Origin: Escherichia coli
Lineage (GTDB): Bacteria > Pseudomonadota > Gammaproteobacteria > Enterobacterales > Enterobacteriaceae
Strand: one strand, 5' to 3'
Length of the DNA: 64,000 nt
Assembly: GCF_003018255.1 (NCBI RefSeq)
Contig: NZ_CP027441.1
Below, one piece after another: positions 53,101 to 56,100 of the stretch. The position numbers were made by a program. The number at the start of each line of letters is the position of its first letter. The first letter of the stretch is position 1.

Positions 53101-56100
53101 CGTTCATTTCCATTCTTTCCAATGGAAAAAACACTTTGGGGATTTGAGGCTGCAAACCCAGTATAAATCCTATCATTAATTTTTGCCTCAGTTACTTCTG
53201 TAGCCAACTTATCAACTGAGCCAGAACCAATTGCTACACTCTTATCAAAATTTACAGTGGCATCTTGTCCCAGAGCTACCGCAGAGGGCTTATTTACGAT
53301 CGCCGAGTCACCTATAGCTACAGAATTGACAGAATTTATACCCTTAACATGGCTGTACGCCCCTAAAGCAATACTGTTTTCAGCCTCTGCTTTGCTATTA
53401 TATCCTATCGCATTTGACTGATTTCCTCCAGCAACGGCTGTAGCACCCAGCGCGTTAGCCCCCATACCAGTTGCTTTACTGACCGCACCAATTGCAAGAG
53501 ATAAAGTTTCTGTTGCTTTACTTTGAGGGCCGACAACGATACTGGCGTCTCCTGTAGCCTCTGATGCGTCATAATTATCAGGGATCAATACTCCCCCATA
53601 CGAACGTCCTTTTAATGGCGTAAGGTCATCACCACCAATAACAATTGCTCCCCATCCACTTGCTTTAGTATCACCACCTATCGCGATTGACTGTTCTTTA
53701 GTCGCTTGTGCTTTGGCGCCGATTGCAATAGATTCTCCTGTCTTAAACCCTTCTGGAGTTTGTATCTCACCACCTGCTATCGCACTTGTACCAATAGCAA
53801 TAGAATTACGCCCACTAGCAATTGGAGACGTATGTTTGAAATAAATACCCTTATCTGGATCTTCTGGAACTTCACTAGTAGTCCCTATTTCGATGCTCAG
53901 CCAGTCATTACCTGCTGTATCCACCGGAGCTTCATCAACCTCAATATGAGACGTATTCTTTTCTGCAAAGGTCATAGCAACCGGAGCTATTGCTAGCGCA
54001 ATAGAAACACAAAGGAGTGTTTTTTTATATTTCATCGTCAGTCTCAACAATTTAAGGTATGCAATACTCTTGGAGTTTCCTTATCAACCCCAAGCATTCT
54101 TATAAAATACTCTAATAGCATGACACATATAAAAACAAGCAAGCAAGTAAACATACAATGTATCCTTTGATGCTCGCCCCTATACAGATAAAATCATTCC
54201 ATTTTATAAAACATAGAAGACATGCCTTGCAAAAAAAATAACCTTAATGTAGCTGTTACTTATAAAACTCCCTTAAGCGACATATGTTTTGATGTATTTT
54301 GTTTAATCGATTCAAGCTCACTGTTAAGTATCCATTATTTATATTATAGTGTTCGCAAACGAACTTTCTTGAACATCCATCAACCAAATAGGCTCTCAAA
54401 GAATCAAATACCTTCTTACTACATATCGGTGATATATCCATCAATAATAAGAAATGTTCTTCATCTAAACAGCCTGGCGTTAACATACTTTCGTCAGGTG
54501 CTCTGGTGTTTTTTTTATCCAAATTAATGATTCTCTCCATGCATGCCTCCTTTTTTACTATCATAAATACAAAAACAACTTTATCTCAACTCTCTCTTTA
54601 CATACGAAAAAAAGTCAAACAATCCATACACAACAGCAATAACAACAGAAACAACCAAGAAAAACAAAAAAAGAAAAACAAAAAACCAATACGCGAAGCA
54701 AAACCAAAAAAACACTTTTAAAACAGAAATAAAAAAAATTAGATAAAAATCAAATGACGACAATATTATCTAAACTTGCAATTAAAAATGAAACCTGTTC
54801 TTTGCAAGTGTGATAGTATTATTCTTCTGCAAGCTGATAAATGACATGCTTAGTTATCCCTCCCATTAATTTCTATTAAATATTTAATAAACTTGAACTT
54901 TGATTTCTACCCTTGATTTTTTCAAAAAACAATCAGTCGAACTGACTGGAGAATAACTCTAAAGACTCCTTCCATCTGGCGGTGATTAAACAGAGACAAG
55001 CATCATTGTTCTTCCCCTGAAATAACAGACTCGCAGCTAAGTAATAGCTCTGTCAGTGTGAGTCACATTACACAATGAAGTTGCACACTGAATTTGGCCA
55101 CCTGAACAGAGGTGATATGCTCACCTCAGAACAACACCGGTGCTCCAATGAAAAAAAGAAATTTCAGCGCAGTGTTTAAACGCGAATCCGCTCAACAGGT
55201 TGTTGACCAGAACTACACGGTGGCAGATGCCGCCAAAGCTATGGATGTTAGCCTTTCCACAATGACAAGATGGGTTAAACAACTGCATGATGAGCGTCAG
55301 GGCAAAACACCAAAAACCCCTCCGGGTAACACCAGAACAAATCGAAATACGTGAGCTGAGGAACAAGCTATAACGCATTGAAATGGAGAATGAGATATTA
55401 AAAAGGCTACCGAGCTCTTGATGTCAGACACCCTGAACAGTTCTCGATAATCGGGAAACTCAGAGCGCATTATCCTGTGGTAACATTCTGCCATGTGTTC
55501 GGGGTTCATCGCAGCAGCTACAGATACTGGAAAAACCGTCCTGAAAAAACAGACGGCAGACGGGCTGTATTACGCAGTCAGGTACTTGAGCTACATGGCA
55601 TCAGCCACGGTTCGGCCGGAGCAAGAAGCATTGCCCGGAGAGGCTACCAGATGGGATGCTGGCTTGCTGGCAGACTCATGAAAGCGCTGGAAATGGCATG
55701 AAAAACCCATGGTAAGCCCAGCGAGGTGATGTTCCACAGCGATAGTAATAATGCCGGTATCAGTTTTTATCATCACTCTGTTTGCTGTTTAACCAGATTG
55801 GTGTGATTACTGATGCAGTGAAGACCTTCCCGCATCCTGACTCACACAGAGCTCGCCCCTTTGTGTCCTGCCCCGGACCTGTCGGTTGCCGGAAGCGCCT
55901 TCATGCGAGGCGTCTCCTCACCGATGCGCGTGACTCAAGAAGGGCCTGACGGCTTGTCTCGTTACTGTCCTGTCTGGGTTATCTGTCTGGAGATTCAACT
56001 CTGTTTCCTCACAGGAGCTCTGTTATGGCAGGTAAAGTTACGGAAACTGCTGTTGTGGGTAGCGTGGATACACATAAAGATCTGCACGTTGCCGCTGTCG

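What the first reader, a model, noticed from the sequence alone, without database searches (positions are those of the whole stretch)
54541..55075. A-tract-rich upstream region of the PapB-like gene, truncated by an IS911-like insertion
The ~530 bp upstream of the regulator is extremely AT-rich with long A runs, the kind of curved DNA bound by nucleoid proteins in fimbrial switches. It ends at the IS911-like left end, so any divergent partner gene (a PapI-type gene would be expected) has been removed. The regulator may now be locked in one expression state.
Basis: inference. Interest (0 to 1): 0.3.

Follow-up and report, generated by a model that had tools for sequence, protein, structure and literature searches.

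The report
Promoter region of sab adhesin regulator
This is the ordinary AT-rich control region in front of a PapB-type regulator that heads the Sab adhesin operon of a pO113-type STEC plasmid; insertion sequences border it, but no partner gene appears to have been lost.

Summary
Window 54541-55075 has 31% GC, and 54590-54760 is the most A-rich stretch of the 64 kb (60% A). It lies upstream of a PapB-family gene (54256-54540, minus strand) that precedes sab (a trimeric autotransporter adhesin), an OmpA-family gene and ehxCA. An IS911-like left end starts at 55076.

Two points need correcting.
- Native DNA ends at 55006. Positions 55007-55075 are the left end of an older IS3-like element. All sab-clade alleles found share it, and IS911 later inserted into it.
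- Nothing supports a lost PapI gene or a locked switch. There is no GATC between 53858 and 56079 and no PapI-like coding sequence. In diverged IS-free alleles the regulator faces a lactate permease/lutABC operon across about 1.1 kb with no gene in between. That same operon lies just beyond the IS nest in this window.

Across 14 allele contigs (11 distinct regulator alleles) the tract keeps its composition and its length but not its sequence. The distance from a distal box to a conserved -35/-10 pair is 184-187 bp in 11 of the 14, 196-197 bp in two and 180 bp in one.

Best reading: an intact cis-regulatory region of TosR/PapB type. Interest is low to moderate.

The parts
54256..54540 (-). PapB-family regulator gene (94 aa, start ATG at 54540; Shine-Dalgarno GGAGG at 54550-54546)
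   Evidence: Pfam PF03333 E=1.8e-36. RefSeq WP_000439678.1, 'adhesin biosynthesis transcription regulatory family protein'.
54560..54589 (-). Proximal sigma-70-like promoter candidate P1: TTGAGA, 18-bp spacer, TATGAT, ending about 7 nt before the Shine-Dalgarno sequence
   Evidence: Consensus scan, 10 of 12 matches. The GTTGAG box, the 18-bp spacer, TAT..T and the AAGGAGG geometry are kept in the 9 alleles aligned and visible in the proximal sequences of the further alleles. Function is inferred, not shown.
54590..54760 (.). A/C-rich tract (T/G-rich on the regulator's sense strand); spacer of conserved length and composition but not sequence
   Evidence: 60% A, GC 0.27. In 9 alleles the sense strand is T 61-68%, G 17-26%. 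Between-clade identity is 60-64%, equal to shuffled sequence at 63.1 +/- 2.6. It holds most of the SNPs in the promoter and regulator region, plus two 1-bp indels, among near-identical plasmids.
54760..54775 (-). Distal conserved box 1, GTTTAGATAATATTGT on the sense strand, at -235 from the ATG
   Evidence: GTTTAG lies at -233 to -238 in 12 of 14 allele contigs, -245/-247 in L037 and STEC1588, and -229 in L038. See the alignment.
54811..54828 (-). Distal conserved box 2, AGAAGAATAATACTATCA on the sense strand, 51-54 bp upstream of box 1
54920..54948 (-). Terminator-like hairpin (CAGTCAGTTCGACTGATTG) followed by a T run, reading toward the regulator
   Evidence: Scan (4 terminator-like sites against 0.4 expected). 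The hairpin persists in the centroid fold. It is conserved in sab-clade alleles and absent from the other clades.
55007..55075 (+). Remnant of an IS3-like left end (terminal repeat TGTTCTTCCCC..., decayed orfA start ATT ACA CAA), cut by the IS911 insertion
   Evidence: Alignment to K-12 IS3A. blastn E=1.6e-4 here; the uninterrupted homologue in L020 is 88% identical to IS3 over 396 bp. Homology with the STEC1588 and P0003 alleles ends exactly at 55075.
55076..59154 (+). Degenerate IS911-like element with an internal deletion and a nested IS110-family plus IS3-family insert (about 55744-58834)
   Evidence: 94% identity to IS911 positions 1-626 at 55076-55690, and to 933-1244 at 58835-59149. RefSeq pseudogene annotation.
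59178..59549 (+). Leader of the divergent lactate permease/lutABC operon (permease ATG at 59550), the probable original neighbour of the regulator
   Evidence: Window 59178-61500 is 95.7% identical to the permease side of the IS-free locus L033. Annotation.

Best explanation
Window 54541-55006 is the native, essentially complete cis-regulatory region of a PapB-family gene that heads the plasmid-borne sab module (regulator, trimeric autotransporter adhesin Sab, OmpA/BamE-like protein).

Anatomy, shown by comparison:
- a conserved sigma-70-like promoter immediately upstream of the ribosome-binding site;
- an A/T-rich spacer of about 155-170 bp whose sequence drifts freely but whose composition and length are held;
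- two conserved AT-rich boxes at about -235 and -288.

Mechanism, inferred:
- The distal boxes and the tract are binding DNA for the PapB-like protein itself and/or nucleoid proteins (H-NS, Lrp).
- These act on the proximal promoter from a fixed distance and helical face, giving silencing, anti-silencing and autoregulation of the TosR/PapB type.
- This would work without a PapI/Dam/GATC phase switch.

History:
- The region was originally divergent from a lactate permease/lutABC operon.
- An IS3-like element inserted 466 bp upstream of the start codon in the ancestor of the sab clade.
- IS911 and further insertion sequences later landed inside it.
- Both lie distal to every conserved element, so expression control is probably unaffected.
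For: - PapB family membership. sab is YadA-type. Gene order is confirmed in pO113 and relatives.
- The -35/-10/Shine-Dalgarno geometry and the two distal boxes are conserved in the 9 alleles aligned. Five further allele contigs checked by motif position agree.
- Box 1 to the -35 box is 184-187 bp in 11 of 14 allele contigs. It is 196-197 bp in two independent alleles, which is one helical turn more.
- Tract identity between clades equals that of shuffled sequence. 1-bp indels already segregate among plasmids about 99.5% identical. Length therefore looks selected.
- There are no GATC sites. No PapI-like coding sequence was found.
- IS-free alleles have a gene-free 1.1-kb intergenic region facing lldP/lutABC. 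The same operon lies beyond the IS nest in this window.
- The IS3-like boundary is shared by alleles about 80% identical.
- Literature: PapB homologues bind AT-rich upstream DNA and counter H-NS, and TosR heads a non-fimbrial adhesin operon (PMC12388093, PMC10392849).
Against: - No transcription start, protein binding or expression data exist for this locus.
- The promoter scan alone is not above chance (6 sites found, 4.7 expected).
- The published TosR motif does not match (best 5 mismatches).
- A runs with few TpA steps (9 in 170) are, from my own knowledge, not ideal H-NS sites.
- One contig (L038) has a 180-bp spacing, off the helical phase. It may be an assembly artefact.
- The IS-free comparators are diverged alleles (regulator 62-71% identical). 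Their distal 380 bp are not homologous to 54850-55006. Loss of up to about 250 bp in the sab clade therefore cannot be excluded.
Confidence: 0.62

Rival explanations
1. One reading: a Pap-type phase switch whose divergent PapI-like gene was removed by the insertion sequence, leaving the regulator locked in one state.
For: The regulator is PapB family. Insertion-sequence DNA does start 466 bp upstream. Up to about 250 bp may be missing relative to IS-free alleles.
Against: There is no GATC in 53858-56079. No PapI/FaeA-like coding sequence was found anywhere in the window or in related loci. IS-free homologous loci have no gene between the regulator and the lactate permease. Several PapB homologues are described without mention of a PapI partner (FanA/FanB, TosR, pMB2 OrfG; PMC12388093, PMC7734786).
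Confidence: 0.04
2. The tract is transcribed from a distal promoter near boxes 1 and 2. It would act as a long U/G-rich 5' leader giving post-transcriptional control, through S1 or Hfq binding or RNase E sensitivity.
For: Strict strand asymmetry is kept in all alleles: T+G is 80-92% of the sense strand. A weak promoter-like site lies at 54847-54818.
Against: No distal -35/-10 pair is conserved across alleles. The leader has no structure beyond chance, z=0.05. A well conserved promoter-like pair sits downstream of the tract. Strand asymmetry can simply be inherited from an ancestral T-rich microsatellite.
Confidence: 0.14
3. The tract is a contingency locus. Slipped-strand changes in run or repeat length alter the spacing between the distal boxes and the promoter, switching or tuning regulator and Sab expression. 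This would resemble the repeat tracts upstream of nadA and hmw.
For: A7/A6 and A8/A7 polymorphisms occur among near-identical plasmids. A 17-bp indel separates two contigs that encode the same regulator. Tandem units occur here (AAGAAAAACAAAAA, two copies) and in other alleles ((CAAAAA)n, (CAACAAAAA)n).
Against: Long-term length is held to 184-187 bp in most alleles, the opposite of free variation. The runs are short (8 bases or fewer here). Homopolymer differences may be sequencing errors.
Confidence: 0.12
4. The tract is non-functional decayed low-complexity DNA between a promoter and older upstream sequence.
For: Sequence identity is at the random level. It is the local hot spot of SNPs and indels.
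Against: Composition and length are conserved across three deep clades despite indel-prone runs, and the outliers differ by 10-11 bp.
Confidence: 0.08

Closest known systems
TosR / tos operon of uropathogenic E. coli (PapB homologue heading a non-fimbrial adhesin operon, with H-NS and Lrp)
   Same: A small PapB-family gene is the first gene, co-oriented with a non-fimbrial adhesin. The upstream DNA is AT-rich. No PapI partner is described for TosR (PMC12388093, PMC10392849).
   Different: The cargo is a trimeric autotransporter plus an OmpA/BamE-like gene, not an RTX adhesin with type 1 secretion. The locus is plasmid-borne. The TosR 28-nt motif is absent. A length-constrained A-run spacer has not, to my knowledge, been described for tos.
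papI-papB intergenic switch (PapB, PapI, Lrp, Dam)
   Same: A PapB-family regulator with AT-rich upstream DNA, and distal plus promoter-proximal conserved sites, recalling PapB sites 1 and 2.
   Different: There is no PapI gene, no GATC pair and no chaperone-usher operon.
faeB (K88), fanA/fanB (K99), pMB2 orfG: PapB homologues without PapI
   Same: They show that the family often works without a divergent PapI partner (PMC12388093, PMC7734786; that faeB and fanAB lack PapI rests on my own knowledge).
   Different: Those regulate fimbrial operons or are orphans. Here the neighbour is a YadA-type adhesin.
Repeat tracts upstream of adhesin promoters (Neisseria nadA TAAA tract, Haemophilus hmw 7-bp repeats); from my own knowledge
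   Same: A low-complexity tract lies between distal operator DNA and the core promoter of an adhesin locus, and NadA is also a trimeric autotransporter.
   Different: Those tracts are perfect repeats whose copy number varies freely. Here the tract is imperfect and its length is conserved.
IS3 and IS911 (IS3 family) nested insertions in large STEC virulence plasmids
   Same: The terminal repeats and orfA starts are recognisable. The nest of decayed insertion sequences is typical of pO113 and pO157-type plasmids.
   Different: No target-site duplication is recognisable. The remainder of the IS3-like element is missing to the right of IS911, which implies a later deletion.

Membership tests
Pap-type phase-variation switch | PapB-family regulator gene | tested here: met
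   PF03333 E=1.8e-36.
Pap-type phase-variation switch | Divergently transcribed PapI/FaeA-family gene | tested here: not met
   tblastn with PapI-like queries (written from memory) gave nothing at the locus. Small ORFs have no Pfam hit. IS-free alleles have none.
Pap-type phase-variation switch | Two Dam GATC sites within Lrp-binding DNA in the intergenic region | tested here: not met
   No GATC between 53858 and 56079.
Pap-type phase-variation switch | Downstream chaperone-usher fimbrial operon | tested here: not met
   Downstream genes are a YadA head/stalk/anchor protein and an OmpA-family protein.
TosR-like arrangement (PapB homologue heading a non-fimbrial adhesin operon) | Regulator first, co-oriented with a non-fimbrial adhesin | tested here: met
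   The arrangement is seen in every related locus whose downstream genes were listed.
TosR-like arrangement (PapB homologue heading a non-fimbrial adhesin operon) | AT-rich upstream regulatory DNA | tested here: met
   GC 0.30 over 54541-55006.
TosR-like arrangement (PapB homologue heading a non-fimbrial adhesin operon) | Published TosR binding motif WTWWTWTWWTWAAWKWTATKAWTDTDTD | tested here: not met
   Best match in the region has 5 mismatches, and 16 such matches occur in the window.
TosR-like arrangement (PapB homologue heading a non-fimbrial adhesin operon) | Regulation by H-NS and Lrp; autoregulation | not testable with these tools
   Needs EMSA, footprinting and mutant reporter assays.
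IS911 (IS3 family) | Left terminal repeat and orfA | tested here: met
   94% identity to annotated IS911 from base 1 at 55076.
IS911 (IS3 family) | Short target-site duplication flanking the element | tested here: not met
   The flanks are ...ACACAA on the left and ATTTTGG... on the right, and differ.
IS3-like element | Left terminal repeat followed by the orfA start at the IS3 distance | tested here: met
   Alignment. E=1.6e-4 here, and 88% over 396 bp in allele L020.
Intrinsically curved phased A-tract DNA | A runs phased at 10-11 bp; high predicted curvature | tested here: not met
   Top period is 6.5 bp. End-to-end ratio is 0.92, 23rd percentile. Alleles range from straight to strongly curved. 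The wedge parameters were recalled from memory.
Simple-sequence contingency locus | Repeat tract whose length varies between close relatives | tested here: inconclusive
   Two 1-bp run polymorphisms and one 17-bp indel, but long-term length is conserved.

The most novel reading that the evidence does not exclude
The A-run tract is a 'molecular ruler'. It would be a spacer without sequence constraint, kept at about 185 bp (or one helical turn more). This would let a nucleoprotein complex on the two distal boxes contact the regulator's promoter on a fixed helical face. Slippage in its runs would provide occasional off-phase (OFF) variants. That would be a previously undescribed control logic for a family of PapB-regulated trimeric autotransporter adhesins on STEC plasmids.
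Probability: 0.15. Interest if true: 0.55.

Novelty: new member of a known kind. Interest (0 to 1): 0.27.

Why it matters
Sab is an adherence and biofilm factor of LEE-negative STEC. I found no study of how it is regulated in the searchable literature.

This analysis shows three things:
- sab and at least ten diverged alleles are each headed by a PapB-family gene;
- that gene has a conserved promoter architecture and no PapI/Dam switch;
- the flanking insertion sequences have not obviously damaged that architecture.

Together these give a concrete, testable map for experiments on adhesin expression. They also remove a tempting but unsupported 'broken phase switch' story.

The length-conserved spacer without sequence conservation is a small but clean case for studying distance and phase constraints in bacterial promoters.

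Tried and rejected
- Rfam scan of 53900-55300 gave only sub-threshold chance hits.
- An RNA fold of the putative leader showed no structure beyond shuffles, z=0.05.
- The TosR motif scan found one hit in the window, inside ehxB coding sequence, so it is chance.
- A search for invertible-element-type inverted repeats found only low-complexity matches.
- Small ORFs in the tract are compositional artefacts. An A-poor sense strand lacks stop codons, and 1-bp indels among near-identical plasmids break the frames.
- The 24-codon open frame ending in the hairpin at 54948 has no Pfam hit.
- A search for an IS-free sab-clade allele failed. All 22 plasmid records and 27 complete E. coli genomes with the region carry the IS3-like end. 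The single metagenome contig has the same junction.
- The Sab paper (PMC2715694) and the TosR/H-NS paper (PMC4771353) are not held.

Full report
**Context**

The window is a pO113-type STEC virulence plasmid. It is 100% identical to NZ_CP027372.1 and 99.6% to pO113 NC_007365 over 54050-55120.

On the minus strand the order is:
- a PapB-family gene (54256-54540);
- sab (49740-54035);
- an OmpA-family gene;
- ehxC and ehxA.

The regulator matches Pfam PapB (PF03333, E=1.8e-36). Sab has YadA head, stalk and anchor domains, so it is a trimeric autotransporter adhesin.

**Checking the observation**

- The interval 54541-55075 has GC 0.312, against 0.48 for the window. Only 1.3% of 535-bp windows are as low.
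- The A runs are concentrated in 54590-54760. That stretch is 60% A, with ten runs of four or more A covering 58 bases. The background is 7.5 +/- 6.1 bases in runs for windows of that size. It is the most extreme stretch in the 64 kb.
- An IS911-like left end starts at 55076. The sequence from there is 94% identical to annotated IS911 elements from their first base.

The description is therefore largely correct, with one exception: 55007-55075 is not native DNA.

**The true boundary**

- A diverged allele on plasmid p_STEC1588_2 is 78-82% identical across the locus. It is homologous up to exactly 55075 and then continues into a decayed IS3-type orfA.
- Alignment with K-12 IS3A shows that window 55007-55075 corresponds to the IS3 left terminal repeat, the 5' untranslated part and the first three codons (ATT ACA CAA in place of ATG ACA AAA).
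- Alleles encoding regulator P0003 (86% identical) carry the same IS3-like end, 88% identical to IS3 over 396 bp.
- Alleles encoding P0002 (88% identical) have the same IS911 junction as the window.

So an IS3-like element inserted 466 bp upstream of the start codon in the ancestor of the whole sab clade. IS911 later hit the start of its orfA in one sub-lineage.

The IS911-like element runs to about 59154. It has an internal deletion and a nested IS110-family plus IS3-family insert.

No allele of the sab clade without the IS3-like end was found. The searches covered 72,556 plasmids, 5,426 complete E. coli genomes and the metagenome collection.

**Was a PapI-type partner lost?**

Four results argue against it.

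1. There is no GATC between 53858 and 56079. The paired Dam sites that define the Pap, Pef and related switches are absent (role of GATC: PMC12388093).
2. tblastn with PapI-like queries (sequences written from memory) finds nothing at this locus or in three related loci. The small ORFs have no Pfam match.
3. More distant alleles of the same module exist without insertion sequences upstream.
   - In L033 (regulator 62% identical), L039/L040 (71%) and NZ_CP027375.1 90740-91915, the PapB-like gene faces a lactate permease/lutABC operon across about 1.1 kb.
   - That intergenic DNA has no annotated gene or pseudogene and no ORF with a family match.
4. In the window the same permease operon begins just beyond the IS nest. 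Window 59178-61500 is 95.7% identical to the permease side of L033.

The caveat is that the IS-free comparators are diverged alleles. Their distal roughly 380 bp are not homologous to 54850-55006, so a loss of up to about 250 bp in the sab clade cannot be excluded.

PapB homologues without a described PapI partner are well documented. Examples are FanA/FanB, TosR and pMB2 OrfG (PMC12388093, PMC7734786).

**Anatomy of the regulatory region**

I compared 14 allele contigs representing 11 distinct regulator alleles: window, L004, L007, L008, L020, L021, L025, L029, L033, L035, L037, L038, L039 and L041. All were read on the regulator's sense strand. The first nine were aligned; the last five were checked by motif position only.

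Four features recur.

- **(a) A proximal promoter-like pair.**
  - The pattern is GTTGAG (-35), an 18-bp spacer, then TATGAT or TATTTT (-10). About 7 nt further on is AAGGAGG, followed by the ATG.
  - In the window it is 54589-54560.
- **(b) A tract of about 155-170 bp.**
  - It is T 60-68% and G 15-27% on the sense strand.
  - Its sequence identity between clades is 60-64%, no better than shuffled sequence (63.1 +/- 2.6).
- **(c) Box 1.** GTTTAGATAWTATTGT lies at -233 to -238 from the ATG in 12 of 14. It is at -245/-247 in two and at -229 in one.
- **(d) Box 2.** AGAAnAATAATAnTAnCA lies 51-54 bp further upstream.

The distance from box 1 to the -35 box is:
- 184-187 bp in 11 of 14;
- 196-197 bp in two independent alleles, about one helical turn more;
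- 180 bp in one short-read assembly, L038. L038 differs from L037 by a 17-bp indel although both encode the same regulator.

Among nine near-identical plasmids the tract holds most of the substitutions seen in the promoter and regulator region. It also holds two 1-bp run-length polymorphisms (A7/A6 at 54607 and A8/A7 at 54731). The tract is therefore mutable, yet its length is held. These indels also rule out the hydrophobic ORFs that the stop-poor strand generates.

In the sab clade a terminator-like hairpin at 54948-54930 reads toward the regulator. It could be the 3' end of a lost co-directional transcript, or an insulator.

**What the tract is probably not**

- A wedge-model calculation gives no unusual curvature for this allele and no 10-11 bp phasing. 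Other alleles range from straight to strongly curved, so curvature is not the conserved property (parameters recalled from memory).
- The putative leader RNA has no structure beyond chance.
- Rfam gives nothing.
- The published TosR motif is not present.

**Mechanism**

Steps shown:
- family membership of the regulator;
- gene order;
- conserved motifs and spacing;
- absence of GATC and of PapI;
- the insertion-sequence history.

Steps inferred:
- P1 is the promoter.
- The boxes and the tract are bound by the PapB-like protein and/or H-NS and Lrp, as for PapB, FocB and TosR (PMC12388093, PMC10392849).
- The fixed distance reflects a face-of-helix constraint between distal complexes and the promoter.

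All conserved elements lie within 54541-54830. The IS3-like end is at 55007, and the hairpin lies between them. I therefore see no reason to think the regulator is locked.

Rival readings are a transcribed U-rich leader, a slippage-driven contingency tract, and plain junk. They are scored in the rival-explanations section.

**Comparison and novelty**

- The closest known arrangement is TosR and the tos operon: a PapB homologue heading a non-fimbrial adhesin operon with AT-rich upstream DNA.
- This locus fails three of four defining features of a Pap-type switch. It should not be filed there.
- I found no paper on the regulation of sab. The 2025 review of the PapB family does not mention autotransporters.
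- The finding as framed is ordinary: an AT-rich promoter region bordered by insertion-sequence debris on a mosaic virulence plasmid.
- The added value is the corrected boundary, the rejection of the lost-PapI idea, and the length-conserved spacer, which is modestly interesting and testable.

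Noticed in passing
window 36555-36604: Five GATC sites spaced 11-13 bp apart. This resembles the Dam-site cluster of a plasmid replication origin.
   Followed up: no
NZ_CP027375.1 (L007 and L034): One plasmid carries two paralogous PapB-like/YadA-like modules. One lies next to ehxCA. The other lies next to the lactate operon, and there the adhesin gene is cut by IS600.
   Followed up: partly
window 54051-54255, compared with L007 7866-7877 and L033 5283-5297: In the sab clade a 205-bp AT-rich spacer separates the regulator from sab. In other clades the two genes are only 12-15 bp apart. sab may therefore have acquired its own promoter or attenuator.
   Followed up: no
L037 2700-3003 compared with L038 1-295: Two contigs encoding the identical regulator differ by a 17-bp indel and two 1-bp T-run changes inside the tract. 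The box-to-promoter spacing is 196 bp in one and 180 bp in the other. This is either real length variation or an assembly artefact.
   Followed up: partly
window 59156-59177: A perfect 9-bp inverted repeat (TTTTGGAGG...CCTCCAAAA) lies directly after the degenerate IS911 right end. It is not present at the corresponding place in the IS-free allele L033.
   Followed up: no
window 55076-59154: The IS911-like element lacks IS911 positions 627-864. It carries a nested IS110-family element that is itself split by an IS3-family element. No target duplications are recognisable.
   Followed up: partly
L030 3724-3822: A 32-residue PapB-like fragment lies about 1.2 kb upstream of the intact regulator in one allele. 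This hints at past duplication or recombination between modules.
   Followed up: no
window 54949-55006: The 58 bp between the hairpin and the IS3-like end are about 95% conserved among sab-clade alleles. They have no homologue elsewhere in complete E. coli genomes. An open frame of 24 codons ends inside the hairpin, and its origin is unknown.
   Followed up: partly
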